A DNA stretch of 64,000 nucleotides from Spirochaetales bacterium. GTDB lineage: Bacteria > Spirochaetota > Spirochaetia > JAFGXN01. The notes below the pieces were generated by a model. The model saw only the letters and a program-made list of their open reading frames with translations, ran no database searches and was not told where the DNA came from. The stretch lies in contig JAFGXN010000007.1 of the NCBI GenBank assembly GCA_016936615.1, positions 28,575 to 92,574 of the forward strand. Direction: 5' to 3'. Both the position numbers and the translations under genes were made by a program. Below are positions 14,217 through 36,997 of this stretch, one piece after another; positions within the stretch are counted from its first letter, which is position 1; each line of letters opens with the position of its first letter.

Positions 14217-14224
14217 AAACTCTC

Positions 14225-15001: not shown

Positions 15002-16064
15002 TGCTCAACCTCCACTCGTTTATCAATGAAAAATCATCACAATCCATTTGATACAAATCTCCCTTACTGAAATTAACAGCAAACAGGCTTCCTGAATCTT
15101 TGTCAAACAATATATCAGAGATAAAATCTCCCGAACCAACAACAGAGGGATAACTTGCAGAGGGAAAATCATCAAGAATAGATATTTCCCCACCAACACC
15201 AACCTCGTAAGAGATAACTCCATTCTCTGAAACTAGATAGACTCTATTTGAAGAATAATCTACCCCTTTGCCCGAACCAAAAGGAGATCCACCAAGCCTG
15301 ATATGCTCCACCACCTCGCCTTGAAGATAATCATAGACAACAAGATAACCATCATCCCCTCCATTCTTTCCAGTACAAACAAAATGTAGTGAAGAGAGAT
15401 CCTCAAACAGAAGGATGTTCTGGCAATTTACAATCTCAGAGTTTAGAATCCCATCTAATGTGGCTATTGGAAAAAAACTTTGTTGAAAGTCAGATAAATC
15501 GATAACAGCAACAAATGGTTGACCAAAAGAGATTCTCTGCCTATCAAAGTTTGTACACGCAACATAGACCTTCCCTGCGTGAACAAGTAGCCCTTCAGGA
15601 CCGGCACTGAAACTAGCATAAGGATTGTTTATTTTAATTTTTTTCTTTAAAGAAAAATCTAATAGATCAAAAATCAAGAGTTCTGAGGTGAGAAAGCATG
15701 TAACCAGTATCAAATTGTCACTCGAAGAGATCTCAATTGCCCATGGGTTTGAACCTCGACCAGTATCAATAGTATACAAAAGCGAAAAGTCACGACGATT
15801 GTAGATTGAGATAGAGTTTGATAGCGAATTAACAACAAAAATCTTATCAGAAGAGGTTGCTAAGGAGTTTGGGGATTTTCCTGCAAATGCAGCATACTCA
15901 AAGATCTTGTCAGCGACAGGATCGACAACACTGATTGAGCTTGAGAGAGAGTTTAACACAAGTAGCCCAGATTCTGTATCTGGGATAGTCGTAGATGGAA
16001 CTCCAGGAAATCTTATGCAGGAGAAAGAGAGGAGAACATAGATTGTGAAGATGAATTTTTTCAT
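14973..16064 (-). CDS. Beta-propeller repeat lipoprotein (YVTN/YncE-like)
   Basis: Signal plus lipobox (LSFSC), then repeated ~40-aa units (SSISVVDPVADKI, VVNSLSNSISIYNRRD, LVTCFLTSELLIFD). Confidence 0.55.
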   Translation of the reverse strand: MKKFIFTIYVLLSFSCIRFPGVPSTTIPDTESGLLVLNSLSSSISVVDPVADKIFEYAAFAGKSPNSLATSSDKIFVVNSLSNSISIYNRRDFSLLYTIDTGRGSNPWAIEISSSDNLILVTCFLTSELLIFDLLDFSLKKKIKINNPYASFSAGPEGLLVHAGKVYVACTNFDRQRISFGQPFVAVIDLSDFQQSFFPIATLDGILNSEIVNCQNILLFEDLSSLHFVCTGKNGGDDGYLVVYDYLQGEVVEHIRLGGSPFGSGKGVDYSSNRVYLVSENGVISYEVGVGGEISILDDFPSASYPSVVGSGDFISDILFDKDSGSLFAVNFSKGDLYQMDCDDFSLINEWRLSSGILSIFQY

Positions 16065-17965: not shown

Positions 17966-19013
17966 TCAAGGCACCAAGACTATTTAAATCAAATCCTGCT
18001 GTCTGCTCAGTCTTATACGGATCAGTTATAATCTGATCGAAGGAATCAAAGCAAGCAGAATCACTAGCTGGCTCCGATATTCCAGGAATATCCACGACTC
18101 TAACAAATTTTATCTTATCAAGATTGACCAAATTCTCAGCAACCTCCCTAGTGCAGATTAGATCTGCAAAATCGAAGAGAACTCCCCAGCCAGACTTTGA
18201 AATTCCCGCAAGGTTGTTATAATTGCCAGGATAGATATAATCAAAAGCCTCTTTTGCCTCAGAATCCAAGACCGAAGATGGAAATCTAGCAAAGTTGACA
18301 CCATCAGAACTTACCTCGACATAGGCTAACTCCGCAAAGACAAGCTCTCGCCCATCCACAAATTGAACCAGCCCATTCTCGAAGATGCAAATATCAGGAC
18401 CAGGGAGATCTTCGACTTCAAACTCGAACTCTATCGTAACAAAGCCACCATTCCCCAACGAAAGAACATTATTTGCATCACCATTTGCAGCGCCTAAAGC
18501 CTTTTTCTCATCTTTATAGACCTCATTAGTAACCCCTTCTCCCGGAGAATACTCAACGACTCGATAACCCCATTGAGTTATCCGCTTATCAGAGAACTCT
18601 ATCAGCCTAGATAAATTAAGCTTTTTCCCTAAAATATTCTCAAACTCCTGCTGTGAAAAATCATCAGTTACCACAATCTCTCGAACAAGGAAGCTCTCAA
18701 CCGTGCTAATTTGCTTCAAATAAAGATAATAGACCCCAGCGCTATCCGGAACCTTCCCAATCTCTGAAAATTGCTCTGGATAGCTCTCTCTCTGCTGCGA
18801 GAATCCGCACAGAAGAGTAACACCATCCTCCAAGCTCTCAAACTCAATCTCAGCTCCCTTCGGATAGAATGTAGAAAAATAGTTTGAGACAATCGATTGA
18901 TCTTTCCACTCCTTCAAATCTACCGAGTATAGTGAGTTTTTTTCACATGAAAAAAAGAATAAGCTGCTTGCAAGGCAGAACCAAGCAAGCAAGTTTTGAT
19001 ACAATTTGTTCAA
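17952..19013 (-). CDS. Hypothetical lipoprotein in the TonB-dependent uptake locus
   Basis: Signal plus lipobox (FFFSC). No recognisable domain. Confidence 0.45.
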   Translation of the reverse strand: MNKLYQNLLAWFCLASSLFFFSCEKNSLYSVDLKEWKDQSIVSNYFSTFYPKGAEIEFESLEDGVTLLCGFSQQRESYPEQFSEIGKVPDSAGVYYLYLKQISTVESFLVREIVVTDDFSQQEFENILGKKLNLSRLIEFSDKRITQWGYRVVEYSPGEGVTNEVYKDEKKALGAANGDANNVLSLGNGGFVTIEFEFEVEDLPGPDICIFENGLVQFVDGRELVFAELAYVEVSSDGVNFARFPSSVLDSEAKEAFDYIYPGNYNNLAGISKSGWGVLFDFADLICTREVAENLVNLDKIKFVRVVDIPGISEPASDSACFDSFDQIITDPYKTEQTAGFDLNSLGALNARQ

Positions 19014-19014
19014 A

Positions 19015-19575
19015 TTATTTCCTCTTCACACCAGATGAAGCATAAGCAAAGGCGTAGATCAAACCTTTATCCTCAGCCTTATCGGCATCCGCAGTAGTCT
19101 TTAACGCTTCTGCACGGGTTGCAAACTCTTCAGTCCAGGTTGAAAAATCCTCTGGAGTTGTGCAGTATCCTGCCTGAGTGAAAGAGTAGGTCTCACCGTC
19201 GAGAGAGGCCCATCTAAAGACTCGATAGACAACCTTGTCTCCACTTTCAACCTCAAGGAGCGCATATCCCTTATCGAGATACTCAGTTGTACCAGACATA
19301 CTTCCAGCAATATACTCATCTCCAGAATTGAAGTTGAGGCTACTACCATAGACAATCTGTCCCTCATAGCCCCCGGAAAAGGGAAACGCCCCAGAGGTAA
19401 CAGTCGAGTAAACAATCTTTTCTTCTGAGATATTCCAAGTTTCGACAGTCGAACCACCATCGAAATCCGTAGTCAACACCCATTCTCCATTAACACTACT
19501 CTGTTTTGTGATGGGGTTGAAGCAACTTGCTGCAAATAATGCAACAAACGCGATGAAAAACAATTTTTTTTTCAT
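19015..19575 (-). CDS. Hypothetical lipoprotein
   Basis: Likely start is the ATG at 19575 (MKKKLFFIAFVALFAASC) with AGGAG upstream. The track ORF extends to 19695. Confidence 0.45.
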   Translation of the reverse strand: MKKKLFFIAFVALFAASCFNPITKQSSVNGEWVLTTDFDGGSTVETWNISEEKIVYSTVTSGAFPFSGGYEGQIVYGSSLNFNSGDEYIAGSMSGTTEYLDKGYALLEVESGDKVVYRVFRWASLDGETYSFTQAGYCTTPEDFSTWTEEFATRAEALKTTADADKAEDKGLIYAFAYASSGVKRK

Positions 19576-19864
19576 TTTTTTCTCCTTCTTACGCGAAAGG
19601 AAAAACCGCCTGCAGGTCGATTTAACCACGGCTCTAGCAAAGTATCCTGACTCACAGGCAATTCCGCAGACACCTTCCCGATTTCTCAGTGGCATAGATC
19701 TACATCTTCCTGAATACAGTTGCGCGACAGTGCAGGATTCTCACCTGCTTCCATTGAACTAGAGCTAACGCAATACTAACAATATATTGAAATCTATTCA
19801 ATACAGTATTGACAATTCAAACCACATCTATTTAAAGTATTACTAATAAAGTTTAGGAGTAAAA

Positions 19865-25703: not shown

Positions 25704-26348
25704 CTAAAAAGAAATTCTGATATTTTTCTCCACTAGACAAGCCTTTCTAAGCTCTTTTTTCAACTCTTCACGATAATCCATTATGTCTGAAATATAATAA
25801 AGCGTAGATTTAGGTGCCCCACCCCGAGAGACACGCCCGCCACCAGCATTGTACCATGCAAGAGCAACAACCTCATCCTCAGTCTGATTCAAACAGTATC
25901 GCAAATGAGAAATTCCCAGCTTAGTATTAAGCTCAGGATCAAAGAAATCCTTAACATTCAACCACGGAAAAGAGAAATTATTCAACTGAAACAGACCCCT
26001 ATCAATTGAGATAGCGTTTTTATTAACCGCATCTGTGGTAAACCGACTCTCCTTCCAAGCAACAGCAAAGGCCAAATCGGCTGGAACATCATAGACAATA
26101 GAATTAGCAAGAATCTGAGCAGATATCAGCCGAGAACCAGTCCTCTTATCAAAAAAATCAAGAACAAACTCCCTTGTATCAGGATTCTTAAACAAAGTCT
26201 CAGCAAGGGAATTCCCCTCATCTGAAGACAAAATTACAACCTTATCTCTTTGAACATGTGATCGATCCTTCACAGATACACAAAAGGTTAGACTCAAACA
26301 AAGCAAACATACCAGGATGTTTACAGAAATCGAAATATTCTTTTTCAT
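25704..26348 (-). CDS. Lytic transglycosylase (SLT-domain) lipoprotein
   Basis: SLT motifs AVAWKESRF...GLFQLN...AWYNAGGG. N-terminal signal peptide. Confidence 0.7.
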   Translation of the reverse strand: MKKNISISVNILVCLLCLSLTFCVSVKDRSHVQRDKVVILSSDEGNSLAETLFKNPDTREFVLDFFDKRTGSRLISAQILANSIVYDVPADLAFAVAWKESRFTTDAVNKNAISIDRGLFQLNNFSFPWLNVKDFFDPELNTKLGISHLRYCLNQTEDEVVALAWYNAGGGRVSRGGAPKSTLYYISDIMDYREELKKELRKACLVEKNIRISF

Positions 26349-26491: not shown

Positions 26492-27184
26492 TCAGAGCAA
26501 ATTCTGCGGAATATCAAGATCTCCGAGCGTAATCATCTCGGCGAGGGCTGATTGACACTGTCGCTGAGCCATCTCAATCTGCCCGAGCATCCCTGAATCG
26601 ACAAACATCATCTCCTCTTTCAAATAACCAGCAGAATCTTCCTCCATATTTGATAAGACCAAATCCTGAATCTTTTTGCTACTCCCCTTCAGAGCCATAG
26701 CCAAGACAACTGGATCAATCTGCTTCACAAATCGCTGAATAGATTTTGGCGAAAGATAAATAAGCTCATCAAAGAGACAGATTCTTTTTCTTATGGAAAA
26801 AAATAGATTTTTATTTTTCGTTTTGATCATATCGAGAAATTGATGCGCCTTCTCAAGATCAAACTCAAGCAAAGCAGATAAAAGCTTATCTTCTAATGGA
26901 AGAGAGAGAATCTTACCATTTTTCTTCTTCTCCAAGAACCAGTTTATCTCATTTATCACAGATCCAAGATAAATTTTCAACTGCTCTAACTCATCAGCAT
27001 CAGGAATTGTTGAAAAAAGCTTAATCGAACCATCTACAAATGCTTCAAGCTGCTGATTACTCATATTATTATAGATAGATACTGCCTCATCATATGGGAT
27101 CAACAGATAAATTAGGCTCTTCATCTCCGCGTCTAAGTTGTTTGTTAATGACTCTAATGTCTGAAATTGAAAAATTGATGCCAT
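26492..27184 (-). CDS. Short FliG-like protein (middle/C-terminal FliG domains only), outside any flagellar operon
   Basis: The C-terminal half aligns with the FliG C-domain consensus (SPKSIQRFVKQIDPVVLAMALKGSSKKIQDLVLSNM...EMITLGDLDI, compare ...ALKGAS..L.EKILSNMS...). At 230 aa it lacks the FliF-binding N-domain. Confidence 0.5.
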   Translation of the reverse strand: MASIFQFQTLESLTNNLDAEMKSLIYLLIPYDEAVSIYNNMSNQQLEAFVDGSIKLFSTIPDADELEQLKIYLGSVINEINWFLEKKKNGKILSLPLEDKLLSALLEFDLEKAHQFLDMIKTKNKNLFFSIRKRICLFDELIYLSPKSIQRFVKQIDPVVLAMALKGSSKKIQDLVLSNMEEDSAGYLKEEMMFVDSGMLGQIEMAQRQCQSALAEMITLGDLDIPQNLL

Positions 27185-27238
27185 AATACCTTCCTATTAT
27201 GACATCAAGTATAATTAAGATATGAAAAATGTCAAATT

Positions 27239-28300
27239 TTAGCGTACGAGACTTGTTCCAAGCTTAGACTTTAATTCATTCTCAAGAGTCAATAGCTCAG
27301 CCTCTGCCTGCTTTCGCTTTAGTCTTCCTTCTTCCTGAATCTTTAGAGTTTCCTCAATAGTCGAAATCAAATCAAAATTAACTTTTTTCAAAGTCTCAAT
27401 TTCTACTATTCCTTTCTCATTCTCTCTTGCAACTTCCACCGATCCTTGTTTTAACATCTCAGAATTCTTGAGTAACAGATCATTCGTTGTCTTTGTAACA
27501 GATTTCTGAATCTCTACCGCCTTTTTTTGTCTGAACAAACTAATAGCAATAACAATTTGATTTTTCCATAGAGGAATAGTATTAAGTATCGACGACTGAA
27601 TCTTCTCAACAAGAGTTTGATTATTACTTTGTATCAATCTAATTTGAGGTGAAGTTTGAATCGAAATCATCCTGCTAAGCTTCAAATCGTGAACTCTTTT
27701 TTCAAACCTTAATACAAATTGCTCTAAGTCGTGAAAATTTTGAGCAATCGAAGGATCTTGAGTTTCTTCTGCTTTTGCTTTTAAAGCAGGTAAATCTGTT
27801 GCCAAAAGATCTTTAATCTTAGCCTCACCCGCAGCAATGAAACAATCCAAATTTCTCAAATACTCTTGATTTTTCTCATACATAGTATCAAGCATTGCTA
27901 TGTCTTTAAGCAAGTTCAAGCGTGAAGAATCTAACTGGTCGACTATCTTCTCAATCTGAACACTAACTTTGTCATACCTAGCAATAAATTTTCTTGTGGC
28001 GTTCCAAAGATTTCCAAGGATAGGAATGCGAGAAGCACCCCCGTCTAATTTATCAACCTTCAAGTCCTTAACCTTAAGAACAAGATCTGTAAGAACATCA
28101 CCGACATAACCAGTATCTTTTGAACGAATTTCACTTAGAATAGTATCCGCAAAAGTAGAAATCTCTTTCTGAGCATTTACACCAAAGACAACAATATCGT
28201 TTGATGATGATATGTTTATTTGGTTTTTTATCTCCTGAATTTTTACCTTATCTGCTTCCATAAAAGAAATAGACTCAGACTCATTTTTTTTCCCTTCCAT
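27239..28300 (-). CDS. TelA-family (toxic anion resistance / YaaN-like) protein
   Basis: Size, coiled-coil-rich composition, and an immediate upstream 2TM XpaC-like partner, matching the Bacillus xpaC-yaaN arrangement. The family is assigned from memory of the TelA profile, not from a search. Confidence 0.5.
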   Translation of the reverse strand: MEGKKNESESISFMEADKVKIQEIKNQINISSSNDIVVFGVNAQKEISTFADTILSEIRSKDTGYVGDVLTDLVLKVKDLKVDKLDGGASRIPILGNLWNATRKFIARYDKVSVQIEKIVDQLDSSRLNLLKDIAMLDTMYEKNQEYLRNLDCFIAAGEAKIKDLLATDLPALKAKAEETQDPSIAQNFHDLEQFVLRFEKRVHDLKLSRMISIQTSPQIRLIQSNNQTLVEKIQSSILNTIPLWKNQIVIAISLFRQKKAVEIQKSVTKTTNDLLLKNSEMLKQGSVEVARENEKGIVEIETLKKVNFDLISTIEETLKIQEEGRLKRKQAEAELLTLENELKSKLGTSLVR

Positions 28301-28311
28301 AAAACATCTCC

Positions 28312-28929
28312 TTATTTTTTATCTAAACCATCCATTTTTAATGCTTGTTCTAAAACTTTCAGTTCGCTATTTAAATCTAAAACATCATCACTAAGCAAAT
28401 TTTCCAATTGCTTCTCAAAAGCTACCGAAATTTGATCGAGTAAAGATTCTACATTCGCTAACGTCGCAGAAATTCCCTGAGATTGAATTCCGTGACTGGT
28501 TAAATTCCTATATTTTTTTATTATGTTGATTGTAGTATCAAGATAGTAATTCAAAAAACTCTTTGCGCTCTTAACATCTTTAGGATCTTTCTTAAAGTTT
28601 TCAAAAATTCTATTAACAACGTCTATAATCTTTGAAATTTTTTCTTTTATATGAGGCTCTTTTTCTGAAGAATATAAATCCTTTATAACCTGAAACTTAG
28701 CCATTCCATCACGCATAGCTTCTTCGTAATCCTTCTGGGAAAGACCACCAAAATCTAATGCAACTTTTTTTCTTGAAGAAAAAATCAAATCAAATCCTAT
28801 ATAAACACCAACCGCGACCAACCCAGCGCCCCATACTGGGAGTTTAATAAGAAAACTAAAAACTAAAAAAGATAAAACAGCAAGAGCAGGCGGAATGATG
28901 TATTTTTTTATATTCATTTTTAAATTCAT
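28312..28929 (-). CDS. XpaC-like (5-bromo-4-chloroindolyl phosphate hydrolysis protein family) membrane protein
   Basis: Two N-terminal TM helices plus an about-140 aa soluble helical domain. Positioned 11 nt upstream of the TelA-like gene. Assignment is by architecture and synteny. Confidence 0.4.
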   Translation of the reverse strand: MNLKMNIKKYIIPPALAVLSFLVFSFLIKLPVWGAGLVAVGVYIGFDLIFSSRKKVALDFGGLSQKDYEEAMRDGMAKFQVIKDLYSSEKEPHIKEKISKIIDVVNRIFENFKKDPKDVKSAKSFLNYYLDTTINIIKKYRNLTSHGIQSQGISATLANVESLLDQISVAFEKQLENLLSDDVLDLNSELKVLEQALKMDGLDKK

Positions 28930-28930
28930 C

Positions 28931-29764
28931 CTACCCCTCTAACCTTGAAATATCAGCAAGAAAGAGAGTCTTCAAACTTTGTCCGAGTTCATTCTTATCA
29001 GAAGCTGACATAATCCGAGCACCTCCATTTTCTAAATTTGAAAATAGATTAGAAGTAATATCAAATCCGACAAAACTAACAAGAATATTATTTGTATAAA
29101 CAGGGAAATTCCCATCTCGAAAATTATTTTTATTAAAGACAATCGCATCCAACACAATCTCAGGAAGAACCCCAGAAGTATTAGCACCATCTGTAACAAT
29201 AATCAAACTCTTAAAGATAGTTCCAGACTGTGCTAGAACTTCAGAACCATACTCAAGAGTCCTACCAAGTGCAGTTGGTCCTTCAGGTAAAAAATTATCA
29301 GGGTCTGATACAATGGATTTCAATTCCGCAAACGAACCTGAATCCATTTCAGTTAACTCAAAAAGAGGCTTAACCTCAGAGCTAAACCCAACAAGAGCTA
29401 ATTTTAGAATCAAGCCACTATTCTTTTCTTTTTTGTAAAAATCTTCAAAAAATTCTACAATATCTTGTAAAGACTCGGATGCTTGAAGATATTTTGCTCG
29501 AAAATCTTTCCCGCTTGCAGGGGTATCAAACATAGATCCCGAACAATCAACACCAATAAAAATTGAAAGCCCTAGATCATCCTGCGAAGACAGGACTGGC
29601 TTGAAATTTTTTGAGAACGTTAACTCATAACTATCTTTGACTAATACAATCGATGTCTCATTACTTTCTTCACTATCACTCAACTGAATATACAAGAAGA
29701 CAAGTCCAAAAAATACAACAATGGCTATCGAGATTAAACTCTTTTTTTTCTTTTTATCACTCAC
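28931..29764 (-). CDS. Membrane-anchored von Willebrand factor A (vWA) domain protein (TerY-like)
   Basis: N-terminal TM anchor. MIDAS motif DCSGSM, with downstream Thr/Asp positions (IIVTDGANTSG). Confidence 0.7.
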   Translation of the reverse strand: MSDKKKKKSLISIAIVVFFGLVFLYIQLSDSEESNETSIVLVKDSYELTFSKNFKPVLSSQDDLGLSIFIGVDCSGSMFDTPASGKDFRAKYLQASESLQDIVEFFEDFYKKEKNSGLILKLALVGFSSEVKPLFELTEMDSGSFAELKSIVSDPDNFLPEGPTALGRTLEYGSEVLAQSGTIFKSLIIVTDGANTSGVLPEIVLDAIVFNKNNFRDGNFPVYTNNILVSFVGFDITSNLFSNLENGGARIMSASDKNELGQSLKTLFLADISRLEG

Positions 29765-30651
29765 TTTCCCACCTCTAAATTAAAAATCATATCATTAAAA
29801 TAGTTCACAATATCAACGAATTCATTTTTTCCATGCATTATGCGTGAATTTTCTTCTGGTCTCGGAACATCAGTAGTAGAAACAATATTACCCTTCTGCA
29901 TTACCCATATTCTATCACCAAGAAAAACAGCTTCAGCAATGTCATGCGTAACAATAATAACAGTAAGCTCATTTGAAGGCTTATAAAATAGTAATTCCGC
30001 CATCAAATCCTGCATTTCCCACCTTATCTTCCGATCTAATGCGCCAAAAGGTTCGTCCATCAAAAGAATTTTCGCATCCATACTCAATGATCTTGCAATA
30101 GCAACACGTTGTTGCATACCCCCAGAGAGCTGAGATGGATACTTCTTTTCAGCTCCAGTCAGATACATTCTATCAACCCAGTATTTTGCAATCTCCTGAG
30201 CCTCTTTTCTTTTTTTCTTCTTCACATGAATTAAAGGATAAGCAATATTGTCTAAAACATTCAAGAATGGAAAAGACGAATATTTTTGAAAAACCATTCC
30301 TCTATCCTGACTTGGTCCAGAAACAGAAACTCCTCCCATGAATAGCTCGCCTCCAGATGGTTGCTCCAATCCTGCAATTAATCGTAACAATGTGGATTTT
30401 CCACAGCCTGAGGGACCTAAAAGAGAAATTACCTCAGGCATCCCAGCAATATCATCAATTTTGAAGGATAAGTCAGGAAGAACTAGATGATCACCATATT
30501 GTTTTGTTAGATTTTTAGCTTCTAAAATAGGATTAGGTCGAACATTTTCTGAGATTCTAGAGGCTTGAAGAGTAGCTAAATTATGAAAAACCTCGTTATC
30601 TATCTTAGGTTCGATATTTAATTTATTTTCCATTTCGTTGTCCTCTGTCAT
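29761..30651 (-). CDS. ABC transporter ATP-binding protein, NitT/TauT (nitrate/sulfonate/taurine/bicarbonate) family
   Basis: Walker A GPSGCGKST, Q-loop, signature LSGGMQQRVAIARSL, Walker B LLMDEPFGALD. Confidence 0.85.
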   Translation of the reverse strand: MTEDNEMENKLNIEPKIDNEVFHNLATLQASRISENVRPNPILEAKNLTKQYGDHLVLPDLSFKIDDIAGMPEVISLLGPSGCGKSTLLRLIAGLEQPSGGELFMGGVSVSGPSQDRGMVFQKYSSFPFLNVLDNIAYPLIHVKKKKRKEAQEIAKYWVDRMYLTGAEKKYPSQLSGGMQQRVAIARSLSMDAKILLMDEPFGALDRKIRWEMQDLMAELLFYKPSNELTVIIVTHDIAEAVFLGDRIWVMQKGNIVSTTDVPRPEENSRIMHGKNEFVDIVNYFNDMIFNLEVGK

Positions 30652-31690
30652 GCTTGAAAATTAAGTAATGACCAAGCTTAAAAAGATAAGAAAAAATAAA
30701 TGCAAATAAAATTATAACAAAAAATATAGCATACATTTCATCTACCTTAAATCTCCTTTGGCGAGCAATGAAAAGCCAACCAAGACCATTTATAGAATCG
30801 CCTCCTCCGGAGTTAATCATTTCCGCAAAGATGATATATCCCCAACCAAGACCAAATACAGCAGCGAAATGCTTCCATATCCTTGACAGAGCAGATGGAA
30901 CCACAATTAAAACAATCGTTTTTACTTGAGAAAACCCCAAAGTATATCCGGTACTTAATAAAATATCATCAACTTCATCAATTTCCTTTATGACAAGCCC
31001 AAGAAGAACAAAAAACATACTTAAAACGAGAAAAATAATCTTCTGCTGCTCCCCAATACCAAAAAAGGCCATTGTCAGCGGAATCAACGCTGCAATCGGA
31101 ATAAAAGTCCCAACTATCAAAGCAGGATTCATAAAGCTTCTAAACGCCTTAAAACAGCTCATCAATACACCAAGAGGCAGAGCAAAAAGCACAACAAAGA
31201 AAAAAGCAGTTAACTCCCTTCTTAAACTTATCCAGATTGCATAAATCAAGGACTTTCTCCATTGAAACTTCTCAGAAGAATCATTAGTTCCCCTTATCAA
31301 CGAAGGAAAGCTTCTCAGAATATCTACTGGATGGGGCAAAACATTCTGAGACAAGACAGGATTGGGAATTCTCTCTTCTTCATATTTAAAACCAGTATAA
31401 CTGATTACCTCTCTAATCTCGATATGTTGGCGAGGGGATAGATTTTTCTTCAACAAATACTGATCTCCAGAAGAATTTTTATAATAAGACTCATTGATCA
31501 AGAGAATATCTTGCTCATCATAGAGATTTCCAACAATAGCTCTCTCAAAGTCATCTATGTCAATTCTAGACAAAGGTTTCCGCACCGTAGTAACAGCAAT
31601 CCAAAGAGACAAAATAATAAGCACAAATAACGCACTATATAAGAATTTTTGATATTTTGGAATATCCCTTCTTATCCTTATTTTCTTCAT
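30623..31690 (-). CDS. ABC transporter permease (BPD_transp_1, NitT/TauT family) with an extended N-terminal region
   Basis: An N-terminal TM plus about-130 aa extracytoplasmic region, then six TM helices containing the EAA-like loop region. Confidence 0.75.
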   Translation of the reverse strand: MKKIRIRRDIPKYQKFLYSALFVLIILSLWIAVTTVRKPLSRIDIDDFERAIVGNLYDEQDILLINESYYKNSSGDQYLLKKNLSPRQHIEIREVISYTGFKYEEERIPNPVLSQNVLPHPVDILRSFPSLIRGTNDSSEKFQWRKSLIYAIWISLRRELTAFFFVVLFALPLGVLMSCFKAFRSFMNPALIVGTFIPIAALIPLTMAFFGIGEQQKIIFLVLSMFFVLLGLVIKEIDEVDDILLSTGYTLGFSQVKTIVLIVVPSALSRIWKHFAAVFGLGWGYIIFAEMINSGGGDSINGLGWLFIARQRRFKVDEMYAIFFVIILFAFIFSYLFKLGHYLIFKHDRGQRNGK

Positions 31691-31701
31691 TTTACACCTT
31701 T

Positions 31702-33360
31702 CTACTCAAATGAAAAGAATTTTACTTCAACTCGACGATTTTCATTTTGATCATCATTGTTAACTGGCATATCCCAGCCCATCCCTTCAGTTAAAATTCT
31801 ATCAGAATCACAACCAAATTTTTCTACAAGAACCTTCTTCACAAATTCCGCTCTTTTTTTGGAAATCAGCTTAGCCTGAGCAGAGGCTTCAAGATATTGT
31901 TGCATCCCCATCGCCTTAAACTCTTCAACTTTACTTGTATCAAGGTGCCCTACAAGCTTAACCATAGTTGTTCCTAGAATATTCATTTGATCACTTATCT
32001 TCCTGATCATTTTAAGATTTTCTGTTGCCTCAAGAGATCCAGAACTCAAATCAAATTCAATCCTTTGCGATTGAAAATTTATTTGAAAATCATCAGTCAA
32101 AACAATCCTACTTGATTCTAAATCTACTATATTGAAATTTTCTTTCTTATTAAAAGAGGTTTTAACATTATTTTTGTGATTTGAAAAATGCCCTTTTTTC
32201 TTCAAAGACAACAGCGATGTCTTATATATAACTGATTCTGCATCAAAATTTGAAGATTTAGCCAATGTTCCAATATTCTTGTAATACTCCTGAGAAAGAA
32301 AGAAAAGCTTATATGCTCCAATTGAGTTTTCCAAATCAAAAAACATCAAATTCTCAGCAAAGTTAGCAAGATGAACATCTCCCAACATCAGAGATGCTTC
32401 CTTTGATCCACCAGAAAGACCAAAAAACTTAGCCATATTAGAATAAACTACCTCTTTATCTTTCTGAAAGATGTCATAACCTTCCATCATAGACTTAGAA
32501 AATGCTTCAACAAATTCCGGATATTCACTAACAAAATCTGCACGGGCAACATAACAATCAGCTATTAATTGGTTTGCATCCTTAGAGGTTATCAGCAACT
32601 TTGCACCTGTAACATAAGACTTACTAGAAGGATCTGTTATATCATATATGAATGGAGACCAGGTTACGCAGGCATCAATTGACTTATCTTTCTCAAAGAC
32701 CTCTTTAGCAACAATGGCATCAGCAACATAATAGATCACCACATCACTTGGTTGTAAATTAGATTGAGCAAGAACCCATAATAAAAAGAAGTTCGAAGGA
32801 GTATTCCCAGACGTAACAATCTTTTTTCCTTTTAATTCCTTAGGGTTATTTATATTTCCACGAACAACAACACCATCTCCACCAAAAGACCAATCAAATA
32901 TCCCAAAAACCTTTGGCATTATCCTCTTATCAACCTTTAAAGCATCATATAATAATGGAACCATATCCATTGTAGACCAAATAATAGGGTATTTTCCATT
33001 TGCATATCCTTGCAATTGAACTGTAGGATCTTCTTCTCTAATTAAATTTACACAAAATCCTCCATTCTTATAGAACTGAGAATCTAACGAAGGCTCCAAT
33101 CCTCCATTAGCAGCAATAAGGCCTGCATAACCGCCCCAAGTCAATAAAGGAACATCAATAACTGGAACAATTTTTCCTCCAACTTCCTTTTTTTCTAAAG
33201 AAAAACCACTACTTCCATTTATTTTTATAGCCTCAACAGTTGTTTGATATGATCCTCCAGAAGAATCCTTTCCTATATATTTAGGAAGAACAGAAACTAA
33301 AACTCCAGCAACAACCACAACCGCTAAAACAGCAATACCTATAATCTTTTTTTTATCCAT
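31702..33360 (-). CDS. Membrane-anchored ABC solute-binding protein (NMT1/SsuA-like) fused to a C-terminal OmpA-like peptidoglycan-binding domain
   Basis: Residues about 60-380 are paralogous to the downstream solute-binding protein (PLLTWGGYAGLIAANGG.. versus PLVTWGGYAALFAANGG..). The last about 120 aa match the OmpA_C pattern (VKLVGHLDTS...LISKKRAEFVKKVL...NRRVEVKF). Confidence 0.65.
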   Translation of the reverse strand: MDKKKIIGIAVLAVVVVAGVLVSVLPKYIGKDSSGGSYQTTVEAIKINGSSGFSLEKKEVGGKIVPVIDVPLLTWGGYAGLIAANGGLEPSLDSQFYKNGGFCVNLIREEDPTVQLQGYANGKYPIIWSTMDMVPLLYDALKVDKRIMPKVFGIFDWSFGGDGVVVRGNINNPKELKGKKIVTSGNTPSNFFLLWVLAQSNLQPSDVVIYYVADAIVAKEVFEKDKSIDACVTWSPFIYDITDPSSKSYVTGAKLLITSKDANQLIADCYVARADFVSEYPEFVEAFSKSMMEGYDIFQKDKEVVYSNMAKFFGLSGGSKEASLMLGDVHLANFAENLMFFDLENSIGAYKLFFLSQEYYKNIGTLAKSSNFDAESVIYKTSLLSLKKKGHFSNHKNNVKTSFNKKENFNIVDLESSRIVLTDDFQINFQSQRIEFDLSSGSLEATENLKMIRKISDQMNILGTTMVKLVGHLDTSKVEEFKAMGMQQYLEASAQAKLISKKRAEFVKKVLVEKFGCDSDRILTEGMGWDMPVNNDDQNENRRVEVKFFSFE

Positions 33361-33374
33361 ATGAAATCTCTCCC

Positions 33375-34433
33375 TTACTTTATTGCATCAAGCATAAATT
33401 TACCAGAAATAACCTGCTTTGGATCAACATTGAAATCAGAGGGTAATTTACCATCTTTTTTGTAAAGCTCAGAAGACTTCTGAAAAATACTAAATCCTGA
33501 AATCTCAAGAGAATCATTAAAAAAATCAGAATTCTCTTCTTTACCACCAATAACAACATCTCCAAACATCAACATAACTTCCTCAACTCCACCAGGAATA
33601 CCAAACAATGAGGCAATATCTTGGGCAACCGAACTCTTATCCGCAAGAAAGAGTTCATATCCTTCGATCATTGATTTAACAAAGGCCTTAATAACATCAG
33701 GATTTTTCTTAAGGAAATCTGCTCTTGTTACATAAACATCTGCAATAACACCAAAACCCTCTGAACCTACCGCTGTAGTCATGATTAACTCAGAACCTTT
33801 AACAAATGAGTCCTTAGAAGAATCAGTAATATCATAAATAAAAGGAGACCAAGTAACGCAAATGTCAATAGAGCTATCATTCACATAAGTATCTTTAGCT
33901 TTTATAGCATCCTCTGCATATATAATCTTTAAAGAAGTAGGATCAATATTGTTTTTATCTAGATACCACAAGAAAAAATAGTGTGATGGCTGATATTGAG
34001 GTAAAACAACTGTTTTGCCAACCATATCAGTAGCATTCTTAATGCCATTTCTAGCAACAATTCCATCCCCACCCGCAGAATAATCAAAGACACCTATTAC
34101 CTTTGGAATAGTTCTTACATCCTTGCTTAATGAATCATATTGAAGAGGAAGCATATCCATTGTCGACCAAATAATAGGATAAGAACCATTTGAAAATCCT
34201 TGTAAATGCAAAGAAGGATCTTCGACTTGAACCAACTCAACTTTATATCCTCCATTTTTATAAAAAAGAGATTCCTCGTTAGGACTCGCTCCTCCATTTG
34301 CCGCAAATAAGGCTGCATACCCACCCCAAGTAACTAAAGGAATAGTTATAACTAACTCTTTCTCTTTTTTCTCTTTCGAACAACCAGAAAAAACAACCAA
34401 ACATGCTAAAATAGCAAAAATTATCTTTTTCAT
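33375..34433 (-). CDS. ABC solute-binding lipoprotein (NMT1/SsuA-like), tandem paralog
   Basis: Lipoprotein signal (LVVFSGCSKE). Conserved segments shared with the upstream paralog (YPIIWSTMDM, CVTWSPFIYDITD). Confidence 0.65.
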   Translation of the reverse strand: MKKIIFAILACLVVFSGCSKEKKEKELVITIPLVTWGGYAALFAANGGASPNEESLFYKNGGYKVELVQVEDPSLHLQGFSNGSYPIIWSTMDMLPLQYDSLSKDVRTIPKVIGVFDYSAGGDGIVARNGIKNATDMVGKTVVLPQYQPSHYFFLWYLDKNNIDPTSLKIIYAEDAIKAKDTYVNDSSIDICVTWSPFIYDITDSSKDSFVKGSELIMTTAVGSEGFGVIADVYVTRADFLKKNPDVIKAFVKSMIEGYELFLADKSSVAQDIASLFGIPGGVEEVMLMFGDVVIGGKEENSDFFNDSLEISGFSIFQKSSELYKKDGKLPSDFNVDPKQVISGKFMLDAIK

Positions 34434-34517
34434 ATAATCTCCTAAATTTTAATATGTAAAAATAATATCACATGAATATAGTTTTATCAATTATTACATT
34501 TAATAAAAAGAAAAGAC

Positions 34518-34578: not shown

Positions 34579-35433
34579 ATGACTATAAGTTTTGCTAGCG
34601 GAAAAGGTGGAGCAGGAAAGACATTTCTATCAGCACACAGCCTTGATTTTTTTCTTAAAAAAGGAACTAAGGTAGCTCTTGCTGATCTAGATGTGGAGGA
34701 GCCAAATTCCAAAATTTTCTTTGATATAGAAGATCTCTCAAAAAAAGAGGCTTTTGCATATGTTCCAGAATTTATAAAAGAGAATTGCACAGAATGTAAC
34801 CGTTGTCTTGGCTTGTGTAAGTTTAATGCATTCACTAAGCTTCCTGGAAGTGCGATTATCTTTAAGCAGATGTGTCACGACTGCGGATTATGTTACTATG
34901 CATGTAAAAATGGTGCAATTGTCCGGACGAAAATGAGAATTGGCGAGGTAAAAAGCTATAATTATAATGGTGCAAAGATTTTTGAAGGATTATTAGATAT
35001 CGGAATGGAGCAAGGGGTTGTGCTTATTAAGCAGGTAAAAAAAGAGGCCCTCGCAGAGGAGCTAGAGCTTCTAATTCAAGACTCAGCCCCCGGAACAAGT
35101 TGCTCGTTTGTCGAGACGATCTCAGAATCAGATATAACATTCATGTCAATCGAGGACTCCCCAATGGGAATTCACGATGGGGAGATTGCGATCAAGGTGC
35201 TTGAAGAGATGAAGAAGGATTTTTACATCATAATTAATAAGGATATAGAGTCTAACTACTCACAAGGATTTAGGAAAAAGTTTAATGAGAAGATTATTGC
35301 AACAATTCCTGAGAAGAAGGAGATTGCCTCTCGTTATGCTGAAAAAAAACTCTCCCCCGAGGACGCAGATATAAAAAAGGCGATGAATGAGATTTTTTCT
35401 ATTGTAGAAAAGAAGAGGGGTGAAAAAAAATGA
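34579..35433 (+). CDS. MinD/ParA-superfamily P-loop ATPase with inserted 2x[4Fe-4S] ferredoxin domain
   Basis: Deviant Walker A (GKGGAGKT). Two CxxCxxCxxxC clusters (CTECNRCLGLC, CHDCGLCYYAC). Confidence 0.8.
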   Translation: MTISFASGKGGAGKTFLSAHSLDFFLKKGTKVALADLDVEEPNSKIFFDIEDLSKKEAFAYVPEFIKENCTECNRCLGLCKFNAFTKLPGSAIIFKQMCHDCGLCYYACKNGAIVRTKMRIGEVKSYNYNGAKIFEGLLDIGMEQGVVLIKQVKKEALAEELELLIQDSAPGTSCSFVETISESDITFMSIEDSPMGIHDGEIAIKVLEEMKKDFYIIINKDIESNYSQGFRKKFNEKIIATIPEKKEIASRYAEKKLSPEDADIKKAMNEIFSIVEKKRGEKK

Positions 35434-36296
35434 AGACTATCACGGTTCTCTCAGGCAAGGGCGGTACTGGAAAATCAACAATAACCGCAATATTAGGCAA
35501 GGTTCGGGAATCTGTTATTCTCGCAGATTGCGATGTAGATGCAGCAAATTTAAATTTTTTCCATAAACCTATCCAAAGCACAACTATACCATTCTACGGA
35601 AAATCCATAGCAGAGATTGACTTCTCAATCTGCAACAATTGTAAAAAATGTGTTCACCACTGCAAATATAACGCAATAGACAGCAGAACCCTGATAATTG
35701 ATCCGCAGGCGTGCGAGGGTTGTAGCTTCTGCGAGTTTGTCTGCCCGCAGCATGCTATTTCGATGAAACCACACAACAATGGTCTAGTCTTCGTATCGAA
35801 GAGTGAAGATCGAGATATAATCCACGCTGATCTTTTCCCTGGTCAAGACAACTCAGGCAAGCTTGTATCAGAGGTGCTCAACCATGCTAGAGAAAAAGGT
35901 GAACTGCTCGGCTACGAGACTCTTCTCTGCGACGGGCCTCCAGGAATTGCCTGCCCTGTAGTAGCATCAATAAACCAGACTGATTTTATCTTAGCTGTTA
36001 CAGAACCTAGCGAATCTGCATTACATGATCTGAAGAGATTAGAGGAGCTTAAGAATTTCTTCAATCTAAGAGGTGGGGTAATTATCAACAAGTCAGATCT
36101 ATCTGAGCAATTAAACTCGAAGATAAAGGCTTATGTCGACGAGAGTTCGTGGGAGATTATTGGAGAGTTGAAAATGCTTCCTGAGATAAGACAGTTAAGT
36201 ATGAACGAAAAATTTGAAATAAGTGACAAGATAAGAGATATTTTTGAAGATTTTTCAAAAAAGATAGACTTTTCAATCAATAAGGAGATAAAATGA
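35430..36296 (+). CDS. MinD/ParA-superfamily P-loop ATPase with inserted ferredoxin domain (paralog)
   Basis: GKGGTGKST Walker A. CNNCKKCVHHC and CEGCSFCEFVC clusters. ATGA overlap with the upstream paralog. Confidence 0.8.
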   Translation: MKTITVLSGKGGTGKSTITAILGKVRESVILADCDVDAANLNFFHKPIQSTTIPFYGKSIAEIDFSICNNCKKCVHHCKYNAIDSRTLIIDPQACEGCSFCEFVCPQHAISMKPHNNGLVFVSKSEDRDIIHADLFPGQDNSGKLVSEVLNHAREKGELLGYETLLCDGPPGIACPVVASINQTDFILAVTEPSESALHDLKRLEELKNFFNLRGGVIINKSDLSEQLNSKIKAYVDESSWEIIGELKMLPEIRQLSMNEKFEISDKIRDIFEDFSKKIDFSINKEIK

Positions 36297-36652
36297 TAGT
36301 ATTAACAGCATTTGAAAACAATTTAGAGTCAAAGCTTGATCCAAGGTTTGGCCGTGCTAGCGGTTTCATATTAGTAGATCAAGAGACAAACAACCACTCG
36401 TGGCTTGAGAATTCTCAGAACATAAACTCTGCCCACGGCGCAGGAATACAGGCTGCGAGTAATGTGGTTCAGAACGGAGGCAAGGTTCTCATCACGGGAG
36501 CAATAGGACCTAAGGCGTTTATGGTTCTAAACGAAGCAAAAGTTGAAATCTTCACAGGCGATACAAGCAAAAGTGTTGCAGAAAATATTGAAGATTTCAA
36601 GGCAAATAGATTAACAAAAGTAAGCTCTGCTACAACAGTAGGCTTAGGCTAA
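36293..36652 (+). CDS. NifX/NifB-C-like dinitrogenase FeMo-cofactor-binding-domain protein
   Basis: Nitro_FeMo-Co fold pattern (DPRFGRASGFILVD...GAG...VLITGAIGPKA). Confidence 0.7.
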   Translation: MIVLTAFENNLESKLDPRFGRASGFILVDQETNNHSWLENSQNINSAHGAGIQAASNVVQNGGKVLITGAIGPKAFMVLNEAKVEIFTGDTSKSVAENIEDFKANRLTKVSSATTVGLG

Positions 36653-36661
36653 GGAGAAATT

Positions 36662-36997
36662 ATGAAGATAGCAATTCCATGCGTAGAAGGAAAGCTGTGC
36701 GCACACTTTGGTCATTGCAATGAATTTGCAATTATTACAACCGAAGGCAAGAAAATTGTAAAAAATGAGAGCGTATTACCACCACCACACGAACCTGGTG
36801 TTTTACCTGCTTGGTTACACAATGAGCACAATGTGAATGTAATTATTGCTGGCGGAATGGGGGTAAGAGCTCAGGAGCTTTTTGCTCAGAACCAAATTAC
36901 AGTAAAAGTTGGCGCACCTGCTCGAAGGCCAGAAGAGCTAGTTGAAGCACTCTTAAACGAGACTTTAGTGACTGGAGAGAACCTCTGCGACCACTAA
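36662..36997 (+). CDS. NifX/NifB-C-like FeMo-cofactor-binding-domain protein (paralog)
   Basis: KIAIPCVEGKLCAHFGHCNEFAII...VIIAGGMGVRA matches the same domain family. Confidence 0.7.
   Translation: MKIAIPCVEGKLCAHFGHCNEFAIITTEGKKIVKNESVLPPPHEPGVLPAWLHNEHNVNVIIAGGMGVRAQELFAQNQITVKVGAPARRPEELVEALLNETLVTGENLCDH

What the first reader, a model, noticed from the sequence alone, without database searches (positions are those of the whole stretch)
27239..34433. Seven-gene operon coupling a NitT/TauT-type ABC importer to vWA–XpaC–TelA stress-module proteins
All genes are on the minus strand with 1–14 nt gaps or 4-nt overlaps: two solute-binding proteins, a permease, an ATPase, a membrane-anchored vWA protein, an XpaC-like gene and a TelA-like gene. 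TelA/XpaC/vWA(TerY) proteins are components of the poorly understood Ter/tellurite-resistance stress systems. Their translational coupling to a substrate-binding-protein-dependent importer suggests the transporter delivers the ligand or metal the module responds to. That linkage is not a described functional unit.
Basis: partly seen in the sequence, partly recalled or inferred. Interest (0 to 1): 0.6.

Follow-up and report, generated by a model that had tools for sequence, protein, structure and literature searches.

The report
Binding-protein/vWA sensor joined to XpaC–TelA
A spirochaete operon joins the little-understood XpaC–TelA membrane-stress pair to a cell-wall-anchored binding protein, a membrane-anchored vWA protein and a small dedicated ABC importer; related genomes show that the binding protein and vWA are the usual partners and the importer is a later add-on.

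Summary
Seven tightly packed minus-strand genes (27239-34433) encode an NMT1-type lipoprotein SBP, a second SBP fused to an OmpA-like peptidoglycan-binding domain, a TauC-like permease, an ABC ATPase, a TM-anchored vWA protein with a complete MIDAS motif, XpaC (E 1.6e-35) and TelA (E 4e-115). The linkage is not unique to this genome: the same seven genes in the same order occur in L093 and L159, and partly in L086, L088, L092 and L156-L158.

The transporter is not the conserved partner. Among 47 SBP-OmpA loci, TelA is adjacent in 21/26 informative cases, XpaC in 22/29, vWA in 26/38 and the permease in only 5/36. The commonest order is XpaC-TelA-SBP/OmpA-vWA. The ABC cassette is confined to one clade, and its SBP1 arose by duplication of the fusion's SBP domain.

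An analogous set (SBP_bac_11+vWA fusion, XpaC, an SBP-like protein, TelA) occurs in 10/80 TelA loci from at least five other phyla plus Treponema.

Best reading: a trans-envelope module whose periplasmic SBP/vWA part is coupled to cytoplasmic XpaC-TelA, with the importer as a clade-specific accessory for the same unknown ligand. This is a new variant of a known kind, and every mechanistic step is inferred.

The parts
34462..34490 (-). Candidate operon promoter (TTGATA-17 nt-TATTAT with an upstream TG); an AGGAG ribosome-binding site lies just before the SBP1 ATG
   Evidence: Consensus scan and sequence. This is weak evidence: the number of promoter-like sites in the region (36) is no higher than in shuffled sequence (36.8).
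33375..34433 (-). SBP1: probable lipoprotein (MKKIIFAILACLVVFSGC...), an NMT1/TauA-type periplasmic substrate-binding protein and the presumed SBP of the importer
   Evidence: Pfam NMT1 E 1.2e-09; NCBIfam taurine SBP E 7e-16, below cutoff; 49% identical to the SBP domain of the next gene; forms a sister clade to the clade-A fusion proteins.
31702..33360 (-). SBP2-OmpA fusion: N-terminal TM/signal anchor, NMT1-type SBP domain, low-confidence linker (residues 404-422), and a C-terminal OmpA-like peptidoglycan-binding domain
   Evidence: Pfam NMT1 plus OmpA; AF2 model pLDDT 82.8; Foldseek hits TauA (E 3e-16) and SsuA; GHLD, the LS..RA Arg (R503) and NRRVE are invariant; family of at least 236 clusters of about 550 aa.
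30623..31690 (-). ABC permease (BPD_transp_1, TauC/SsuC-like) with an extra loop of about 100 aa between TM1 and TM2
   Evidence: Pfam; NCBIfam SaoP/TauC, below cutoffs; hydropathy; small, sharply bounded family of about 40 clusters.
29761..30651 (-). ABC ATPase with intact Walker A (GPSGCGKST), signature (LSGGMQQR), Walker B (LLMDEPF) and H-loop (VTHD)
   Evidence: Pfam ABC_tran E 5e-28; motifs read from the translation.
28931..29764 (-). Membrane-anchored vWA protein: lysine-rich N-terminus, one TM helix, and a predicted periplasmic vWA domain with a complete MIDAS motif
   Evidence: Pfam VWA; D73-x-S75-x-S77, T164 and D192 invariant in 10 orthologues; hydropathy; nearest solved relatives are Bat-type vWA proteins.
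28312..28929 (-). XpaC (Halogen_Hydrol): hydrophobic N-terminal membrane region (one clear TM helix by hydropathy, probably a two-helix hairpin) plus a cytoplasmic helical domain
   Evidence: Pfam PF10112 E 1.6e-35; hydropathy and N-terminal sequence; adjacent to TelA in 61/80 species-representative loci.
27239..28300 (-). TelA (YaaN-like): soluble, all-helical cytoplasmic protein with a long alpha-hairpin
   Evidence: Pfam PF05816 E 4.2e-115; 58-69% identical to homologues in Spirochaetota, Bacteroidota and other phyla; low-confidence AF2 model with helices 95-180 and 183-287.
27208..27235 (-). Downstream boundary: promoter-like site (TTGACA-16 nt-TATACT) in the 54-nt gap after the TelA stop, in front of the FliG_C-like gene. 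That gene is not part of the conserved unit.
   Evidence: no FliG_C-like or SLT homologues were found next to the module in L086-L145.

Best explanation
The operon encodes one trans-envelope unit. Its conserved core is four proteins. Two are predicted to face the periplasm: an inner-membrane-anchored SBP domain tied to peptidoglycan through its OmpA-like domain, and a membrane-anchored vWA domain with an intact metal-ion-dependent adhesion site. Two act at the cytoplasmic face: XpaC, which is membrane-embedded with a cytoplasmic helical domain, and TelA, a soluble coiled-coil protein.

Proposed working (inferred): the SBP domain binds a small periplasmic solute of the class handled by TauA/SsuA/NrtA-type proteins. 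The liganded or unliganded SBP engages the vWA MIDAS site. The state of this periplasmic complex is passed through the vWA and XpaC membrane helices to control XpaC-TelA, the membrane-protective pair known from Firmicutes.

In the window's clade the SBP domain was duplicated to give a free lipoprotein (SBP1), and a dedicated TauC-like permease and ATPase were recruited. These organisms therefore probably also import the same ligand.

Shown: gene content, order, recurrence, domain composition, intact motifs and the paralogy of the two SBPs. Inferred: topology, the physical contacts, the direction of signalling, and the ligand, which is unknown.
For: Families and tight gene spacing.

The SBP-OmpA fusion travels with XpaC-TelA and vWA in at least three different gene orders: the seven-gene order; XpaC-TelA-SBP/OmpA-vWA; and SBP/OmpA-vWA-XpaC. 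Flank-aware counts are TelA 21/26, XpaC 22/29, vWA 26/38 and permease 5/36.

The ABC arrangement is confined to one clade of the SBP-OmpA tree. SBP1 is 49% identical to the fusion's SBP domain and is sister to the clade-A fusions, at 49% identity against 40-41% to the other clades. Close permease homologues number only about 40 clusters; all four looked up lie in such loci, and many others share contig lengths with SBP-OmpA or TelA hits.

There is an independent analogue. In 10/80 TelA loci from Bacteroidota, Clostridia, Myxococcota, Acidobacteriota, Desulfobacterota-type lineages and Treponema, an SBP_bac_11+vWA fusion precedes XpaC, followed by a TM-anchored distant SBP paralogue and then TelA. 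There the SBP and vWA domains are fused in one chain, which argues that they cooperate physically.

The MIDAS residues are invariant, the peptidoglycan-binding motif is conserved, and the SBP domain has a TauA/SsuA-like fold.

XpaC-TelA is an envelope-stress pair in Firmicutes: sigmaW regulon (PMC3498285), nisin and cell-wall antibiotics (Collins 2010, cited in PMC12791056), and daptomycin binding and lipid domains (PMC6811118).
Against: There is no expression, interaction or ligand data for any member of this module. Topologies rest only on hydropathy and the positive-inside rule.

The linkage is not obligatory. Several loci have SBP-OmpA alone (L087, L091, L115, L116, L136). Some lack vWA (L098, L112, L114, L119) or TelA (L092, L103, L156-L158).

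The two module types share only generic vWA similarity and use different SBP families, so the analogy could be coincidental recruitment.

Arrangement-B genomes were sampled only as 10-kb flanks, so a divergent transporter encoded elsewhere cannot be fully excluded. The trees are midpoint-rooted NJ.
Confidence: 0.45

Rival explanations
1. Import-centred model. The ABC transporter takes up a solute or metal, and the cytoplasmic XpaC-TelA (plus vWA) module responds to or detoxifies the imported compound. Both SBPs simply feed the permease.
For: All four transporter parts are intact and translationally coupled to vWA-XpaC-TelA. The permease family was seen only in this locus type. Importers with two SBPs are common (general knowledge).
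Against: Most SBP-OmpA/vWA/XpaC/TelA loci have no permease or ATPase (5/36). No closer permease relatives exist in a database of 5.8 billion proteins beyond about 40 clusters, against at least 236 SBP-OmpA clusters. The vWA domain is predicted to be periplasmic. An SBP tethered to both the membrane and peptidoglycan is an odd delivery vehicle.
Confidence: 0.15
2. Structural-tether model. The SBP-OmpA and vWA proteins are not ligand sensors. They form a scaffold that pins the inner membrane, and with it XpaC-TelA, to peptidoglycan in the way MotB/Pal-type OmpA-domain proteins do. The SBP fold serves as a protein-protein interaction domain.
For: The OmpA-like motif is conserved. A Foldseek hit to the TssL periplasmic domain also appears in the hit list. 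The vWA MIDAS site is a protein-binding device (established for integrin I domains). Many loci lack any transporter.
Against: A clade recruited a cognate permease and ATPase and duplicated the SBP domain as a free lipoprotein, which makes sense only if the domain binds a transportable solute. The SBP domain is strongly conserved along its whole length, with many invariant Trp, Asp and Gly residues. The analogous modules again use SBP folds.
Confidence: 0.2
3. Chance neighbours. A sulfonate/taurine-type nutrient importer and an unrelated vWA-XpaC-TelA stress operon merely lie head to tail.
For: NitT/TauT importers are usually nutritional (general knowledge). Weak internal promoter-like matches exist. 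Some relatives carry the ABC part without TelA (L092, L156-L158).
Against: Junctions are 1-14 nt gaps or overlaps. The block keeps its order in contigs with different flanks. The SBP-OmpA gene is linked to XpaC-TelA in other orders with no ABC genes. vWA is always present in the ABC clade.
Confidence: 0.07
4. Ter-like conflict or anti-phage system, in which TelA and vWA form a sub-membrane barrier against phage or xenobiotic entry, as proposed for Ter operons.
For: This role is proposed for TelA and the TerF vWA protein in Ter systems (PMC7824862, citing Anantharaman et al. 2012).
Against: No PADLOC hit for TelA, XpaC, vWA or either SBP. No TerB/C/D-type gene, kinase or phosphatase among the ten genes scanned in and beside the operon. 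The vWA is Bat-like and predicted periplasmic. Base composition shows no sign of a foreign island.
Confidence: 0.05

Closest known systems
xpaC-telA (xpaC-yaaN) two-gene envelope-stress operon of Firmicutes (B. subtilis, Listeria lmo1966-67, E. faecium, L. lactis)
   Same: Same two Pfam families, same order (XpaC then TelA) and tight linkage. XpaC is adjacent to TelA in 61/80 species-representative loci.
   Different: The Firmicute pair stands alone and is driven by sigmaW or LiaR/CesR-type regulators (PMC3498285, PMC10269926). Here it is joined to periplasmic SBP-OmpA and vWA proteins, and in this clade to an ABC importer. No regulator is visible in the operon.
Ter (terZABCDEF) tellurite-resistance clusters with TelA and the TerY/TerF vWA proteins
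   Same: TelA and a vWA protein occur together, and the function is poorly understood and membrane-associated.
   Different: No TerB, TerC or TerD, and no biosynthetic or kinase/phosphatase genes, among the ten genes scanned. The vWA is TM-anchored, predicted periplasmic and closest to Bat-type vWA proteins.
NitT/TauT-family ABC importers (TauABC, SsuABC, NrtABCD/CmpABCD)
   Same: NMT1-fold SBP, BPD_transp_1 permease with best hits to SaoP/TauC/SsuC, and a canonical ATPase.
   Different: All NCBIfam scores are far below the equivalog cutoffs, so the substrate is unknown. The second SBP is fused to an OmpA-like domain. The permease has an extra periplasmic loop. The cassette was found only inside this module.
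SBP_bac_11+vWA fusion / XpaC / SBP-like protein / TelA module found here in other phyla (e.g. Puia dinghuensis L003, Treponema L069-L072)
   Same: Same four kinds of component (SBP fold, vWA with DxSxS, XpaC, TelA), again with two SBP paralogues.
   Different: A different SBP family (SBP_bac_11, not NMT1). SBP and vWA are fused. There is no OmpA domain and no permease or ATPase. The vWA similarity is only generic. It is an analogue, not an orthologue.
Bat (Bacteroides aerotolerance) membrane-anchored vWA proteins BatA/BatB
   Same: TM-anchored vWA with a MIDAS motif; these are the nearest solved relatives (4rck, 3ibs, 4jdu); also found in spirochaetes (own knowledge).
   Different: No Bat operon partners here (no BatA N-terminal domain or TPR proteins in the Pfam results), and the similarity is modest (E 1e-5 to 7e-8).
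SBP-dependent periplasmic sensing (LuxP-LuxQ, TorT-TorS, ChvE-VirA) and OmpA-domain anchors (MotB, Pal, TssL)
   Same: Functional analogy only: an SBP used as a ligand receptor for a membrane partner, and an OmpA-like domain tying an inner-membrane complex to peptidoglycan (own knowledge).
   Different: There is no kinase or chemoreceptor output. The presumed output is XpaC-TelA. No homology is claimed.

Membership tests
TelA (PF05816, toxic anion resistance protein) | Full-length match to the family profile above the gathering score | tested here: met
   E 4.2e-115, 384.8 bits against a cutoff of 30, profile positions 1-330 of 332.
TelA (PF05816, toxic anion resistance protein) | Confers tolerance to tellurite or to envelope-active antimicrobials | not testable with these tools
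   Requires genetics. Known only for Firmicute and plasmid homologues (PMC12791056, PMC6811118).
XpaC / Halogen_Hydrol (PF10112) | Profile match plus an N-terminal membrane region and a helical C-terminal domain | tested here: met
   E 1.6e-35, profile positions 9-191 of 191; hydrophobic N-terminus over residues 10-50.
xpaC-telA envelope-stress pair | XpaC gene immediately upstream of TelA on the same strand | tested here: met
   11-nt gap in the window; the same adjacency in 61/80 loci.
xpaC-telA envelope-stress pair | Induction by cell-envelope stress regulators (sigmaW, LiaR/CesR/VraR) | not testable with these tools
   No expression data. No such regulator is encoded in the operon.
Ter tellurite-resistance system (TerZABCDEF) | Presence of TerD-, TerC- or TerB-family genes with TelA | tested here: not met
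   None among the ten genes scanned from 25.7 to 35.4 kb. The rest of the window was not scanned with profiles.
TerY / TerY-P vWA proteins | Soluble cytoplasmic vWA linked to a PP2C phosphatase and a Ser/Thr kinase or to Ter genes | tested here: not met
   The protein has a lysine-rich N-terminus plus one TM helix. There is no kinase or phosphatase in the operon, no PADLOC hit, and the nearest solved relatives are Bat-type.
vWA domain with functional MIDAS | DxSxS ... T ... D metal-coordinating residues | tested here: met
   D73, S75, S77, T164 and D192 are invariant in 10 orthologues.
NitT/TauT-family ABC importer | NMT1/TauA-fold SBP, BPD_transp_1 permease, and an ATPase with Walker A/B, signature and H-loop | tested here: met
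   ATPase motifs read from the translation.
NitT/TauT-family ABC importer | Assignable substrate (taurine, sulfonate, nitrate, bicarbonate and so on) | tested here: inconclusive
   The best NCBIfam scores of 58-80 bits are far below cutoffs of 290-340. Structural neighbours are only 13-17% identical.
OmpA-like peptidoglycan-binding domain (PF00691) | Profile match and conserved Asp/Arg peptidoglycan-binding motif (GHxD ... LS..RA ... NRRV) | tested here: met
   E 3e-09. G471, H472, D474, R503 and N541-R542-R543-V544 are invariant or nearly so. The Arg aligns with that of AbOmpA 3td3.
Known anti-phage defence systems (PADLOC-DB 2.0) | Match of the non-ABC components to a defence-system model | tested here: not met
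   No hits for TelA, XpaC, vWA, the SBPs, C2 or C3. Only generic ABC-ATPase hits were found.

The most novel reading that the evidence does not exclude
XpaC-TelA, an envelope-stress pair whose mechanism is unknown, is in many Gram-negative-type bacteria the cytoplasmic output of a ligand-gated periplasmic receptor. That receptor is built from a substrate-binding-protein fold plus a MIDAS vWA domain. It was assembled at least twice independently: as NMT1-SBP/OmpA plus a separate vWA in Spirochaetota, and as an SBP_bac_11-vWA fusion plus an SBP-like protein in at least five other phyla. In one spirochaete clade the receptor domain was duplicated to found a dedicated ABC importer. This would be an undescribed class of trans-envelope sensing or repair system and would give TelA/XpaC their first defined input signal.
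Probability: 0.3. Interest if true: 0.7.

Novelty: new variant of a known kind. Interest (0 to 1): 0.5.

Why it matters
TelA and XpaC are widespread. They are repeatedly implicated in tolerance to tellurite, nisin, daptomycin and other envelope-active agents, yet a 2026 paper still states that 'the mechanism ... is not known' (PMC12791056). A conserved periplasmic binding protein, a MIDAS vWA partner and, in one clade, a matching importer give concrete handles. Identify the ligand of two easily purified SBPs, and the signal that this stress pair answers becomes testable. The work also corrects the first impression: the transporter is an accessory, not the core.

Tried and rejected
1. The key comparative paper on Ter/TelA contexts (Anantharaman, Iyer and Aravind 2012, PMC4104200) could not be read. 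I therefore cannot exclude that it already notes SBP-vWA fusions beside XpaC-TelA. Five full-text searches found no description of the combination.

2. The TelA structure model had low confidence (pLDDT 62.8). Foldseek against PDB gave no hit at E <= 1e-3. The weak top hits to ClyA-family pore-forming toxins and an F-BAR domain are recorded as a lead, not as evidence.

3. I tested whether the extra gene of about 360 aa between XpaC and TelA in other phyla (C3) is a TelA paralogue. It is not (hhalign probability 0.1%). It is a distant SBP paralogue instead.

4. I tested whether the window's vWA is specifically related to the vWA domain of the C2 fusions. The similarity is only generic, so I call the two module types analogous.

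5. The PADLOC defence search was negative.

6. Rfam found nothing in or near the operon.

7. Promoter and terminator scans are not above the shuffled expectation, so transcription-unit boundaries remain unproven.

8. XpaC and TelA have no solved relatives by sequence.

Both were repeated correctly.

10. The ligand could not be inferred from family or fold matches.
Full report
**1. Observation**

The seven minus-strand ORFs are present exactly as described. The junctions are gaps of 14, 11, 1 and 11 nt, a 4-nt overlap between the ATPase and vWA genes, and a 29-nt overlap between the permease and ATPase genes when the longest ORFs are taken.

Pfam confirms every family:
- TelA: E 4.2e-115, full length.
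- XpaC/Halogen_Hydrol: E 1.6e-35.
- VWA, ABC_tran and BPD_transp_1.
- NMT1 in both binding proteins.

The 552-aa protein is a fusion of an NMT1-type SBP with a C-terminal OmpA-like peptidoglycan-binding domain (PF00691, E 3e-09). The vWA protein shows no TerY features. The contig comes from a Spirochaetales MAG, since there are 100% identical proteins in NCBI. Base composition across the operon is unremarkable.

A sigma-70-like site with an AGGAG ribosome-binding site lies upstream of the first gene. Another lies just after the TelA stop, in front of the next gene. Such matches are no more frequent here than in shuffled sequence, so co-transcription is plausible but unproven.

**2. What each part looks like**

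- SBP1 starts with a lipoprotein-type signal (…VVFSGC).
- The fusion protein has one strong N-terminal hydrophobic helix, a confidently modelled SBP domain, a low-confidence linker (residues 404-422) and an OmpA-like domain (AF2 pLDDT 82.8). Its closest solved folds are TauA and SsuA, followed by Thi5/ThiY, PqqT and CmpA/NrtA, at only 13-17% identity. NCBIfam scores are far below every equivalog cutoff, so the ligand cannot be named.
- The OmpA-like domain keeps GHLD, the Arg of the LS..RA motif and NRRVE. These are invariant across 28 family members, and the Arg aligns with that of A. baumannii OmpA.
- The ATPase has intact Walker A, signature, Walker B and H-loop motifs (translation).
- The permease has an extra loop of about 100 residues after TM1.
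- The vWA protein has a lysine-rich N-terminus and one TM helix. Its MIDAS residues (D73, S75, S77, T164, D192) are invariant in ten orthologues. By the positive-inside rule the domain should face the periplasm. Its nearest solved relatives are Bat-type membrane vWA proteins.
- XpaC has a hydrophobic N-terminal membrane region and a helical remainder.
- TelA is soluble and all-helical, with a long alpha-hairpin. The model is poor (pLDDT 62.8) and has no significant structural match.

**3. Is the linkage recurrent?**

I approached this from three directions.

*(a) From TelA.* A scan of one genome per species returned 80 loci. XpaC is adjacent on the same strand in 61 of them. Only one, L024 (another Spirochaetota MAG), also has homologues of the window's SBP-OmpA (48% identity) and vWA (41%). 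They sit in a tight operon XpaC-TelA-SBP/OmpA-vWA with no TauC-type permease or ATPase.

*(b) From the SBP-OmpA fusion.* This is a populous family of about 550 aa, with at least 236 clusters, almost all Spirochaetota. A metagenome scan gave 47 unique loci. Counting only loci with enough flanking DNA:

| Partner | Adjacent / informative loci |
|---|---|
| TelA | 21/26 |
| XpaC | 22/29 |
| vWA | 26/38 |
| Permease | 5/36 |

Three orders occur: the window's seven-gene order; XpaC-TelA-SBP/OmpA(-vWA), which is the commonest; and SBP/OmpA-vWA-XpaC. A few loci carry the fusion alone.

*(c) From the permease.* Only about 40 clusters are close (51-68% identity), after which similarity falls to 38% or less. 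Their contig lengths repeatedly coincide with those of SBP-OmpA and TelA hits. All four long contigs examined carry SBP1-SBP/OmpA-permease-ATPase-vWA:
- L159 adds XpaC-TelA and is identical in order to the window.
- L156 adds XpaC only.
- L157 has XpaC on the divergent strand.
- L158 has an unassigned 240-aa gene before vWA.

L093 also has the full seven genes. Flanking genes differ between these contigs, and the window's downstream FliG_C-like and SLT genes are not found beside the module elsewhere. The block therefore behaves as a unit.

**4. Evolution of the ABC part**

In an NJ tree of the fusion proteins, all loci that contain the ABC genes fall in one clade. That clade also holds two members that have lost all neighbours.

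SBP1 is 49% identical to the fusion's SBP domain over its full length (E 1e-110). In an SBP-domain tree the SBP1 sequences form one clade, sister to the clade-A fusions, with mean identity of 49% to them against 40-41% to the other clades. The SBP1 and fusion subtrees do not pair by genome, which argues against recent gene conversion.

The simplest reading is that a four-gene module is the older state. At the base of the window's clade the receptor domain was duplicated as a free lipoprotein and a permease and ATPase were recruited. The rooting is by midpoint only, so the opposite polarity (an ancestral transporter lost many times) is not excluded, but it would need more events.

**5. An independent analogue**

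In 10 of the 80 TelA loci, and in Puia dinghuensis, XpaC is preceded by a lipoprotein of about 550 aa that fuses an SBP_bac_11 domain to a vWA domain. XpaC is separated from TelA by a TM-anchored protein of about 358 aa. These loci come from Bacteroidota, Clostridia, Myxococcota, Acidobacteriota, Geobacteraceae, Syntrophaceae and Treponema.

That third protein has no Pfam match and is unrelated to TelA. It is a distant paralogue of the fusion's SBP domain (23% identity over 270 residues, E 5e-11).

So a second architecture again combines two SBP-fold proteins, a vWA domain, XpaC and TelA. The vWA similarity to the window's protein is only generic and the SBP families differ, so this is an analogue, not an orthologue. 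Because SBP and vWA are fused in one chain there, they probably cooperate physically where they are separate.

**6. Mechanism**

- Shown: composition, order, recurrence, intact motifs and the paralogy of the two SBPs.
- From established knowledge: SBPs close on small ligands; MIDAS vWA domains bind acidic residues of protein partners through a metal ion; OmpA-like domains bind peptidoglycan; XpaC-TelA is induced by, and affects tolerance to, envelope-active agents in Firmicutes (PMC3498285, PMC6811118, PMC10269926, PMC12791056).
- Inferred: the SBP-OmpA protein is tethered between the inner membrane and the cell wall and reports a periplasmic solute. It engages the vWA MIDAS site. The state of the complex is relayed through the vWA and XpaC membrane helices to XpaC-TelA at the inner face of the membrane. 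In the window's clade the same solute is also imported through SBP1, the permease and the ATPase.

I put about 0.45 on this general model and much less on its individual steps.

**7. Rivals**

It is weakened by the rarity of the permease and the predicted periplasmic vWA.
- Purely structural tether, 0.2. It is weakened by the recruitment of a cognate transporter.
- Chance adjacency, 0.07.
- Ter-like defence system, 0.05. There are no PADLOC hits and no Ter genes among the ten genes scanned.

**8. Comparison with what is known, and novelty**

The XpaC-TelA pair is known. TelA with a vWA protein is known from Ter clusters. NitT/TauT importers are ordinary.

I could not find a description of the SBP-OmpA plus TM-vWA partnership with XpaC-TelA, its ABC-bearing derivative, or the parallel SBP_bac_11-vWA architecture.

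I rate the finding as a new variant of a known kind, with interest 0.5. It is a solid, recurrent and testable lead on a long-unexplained protein pair, but it rests on comparative genomics alone and the ligand is unknown.

Noticed in passing
window 19619-19778 (-): Cobalamin riboswitch (RF00174, 69.7 bits, E 3.8e-15) at the head of a long run of minus-strand genes (about 11372-19695), presumably for B12 transport or salvage.
   Followed up: no
window 26492-27184 (-) and 25704-26348 (-): Directly after TelA lies a 230-aa protein that consists essentially of a FliG C-terminal domain (E 1.4e-18), with no full-length FliG match. It has its own promoter-like site and a 14-bp hairpin that encloses its ribosome-binding site and start codon. 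An SLT lytic-transglycosylase lipoprotein follows. Neither gene is found beside the module in relatives.
   Followed up: partly
window 34579-36997 (+): A divergently transcribed cluster: two MinD/CbiA-type P-loop ATPases carrying 4Fe-4S ferredoxin inserts, followed by two proteins of about 115 aa. Only the first was scanned against Pfam.
   Followed up: no
window 30623-31690 (-): The TauC-like permease has an extra segment of about 100 residues between TM1 and TM2. Many homologues are annotated about 70 residues shorter (about 282 aa), so start-codon calls in this family are inconsistent.
   Followed up: no
L003 6652-11095; L021, L022, L023, L025, L033, L040, L065, L069, L070, L072: A multi-phylum four-gene module: SBP_bac_11+vWA lipoprotein, XpaC, a TM-anchored protein of about 358 aa with no Pfam match (a distant SBP paralogue), and TelA. 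In Puia an amino-acid permease and a GSP_synth-family gene lie just upstream.
   Followed up: partly
L015, L038, L041, L048, L049, L051 (Leptospiraceae, including Leptospira vanthielii): Here the pair is inverted: TelA comes first, followed by a longer XpaC-like protein (about 290-310 aa).
   Followed up: no
L031, L034, L036, L042, L044, L050 (Clostridia); L026-L028, L037 (Spirochaetota): Other recurrent neighbours of XpaC-TelA. In Clostridia, a B12-binding radical-SAM/DUF4080 protein lies immediately upstream and IleRS lies downstream. In some Spirochaetota, a DJ-1/PfpI protein and an M23 peptidase lie immediately downstream.
   Followed up: no
window 27239-28300 (TelA model m23d5080a0e9a): The low-confidence TelA model is a long helical hairpin bundle. 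Its best, non-significant PDB matches are ClyA-family alpha-pore-forming toxins (AhlC/AhlB, MakA, XaxB, HlyE) and an F-BAR domain, all elongated membrane-active helical proteins.
   Followed up: partly
L087 6489-8159; L091 7942-9618: Two very AT-rich genomes (27% GC) inside the ABC clade carry the SBP-OmpA gene alone, with none of the other six genes within 6-10 kb. The fusion protein can therefore persist without its usual partners.
   Followed up: partly
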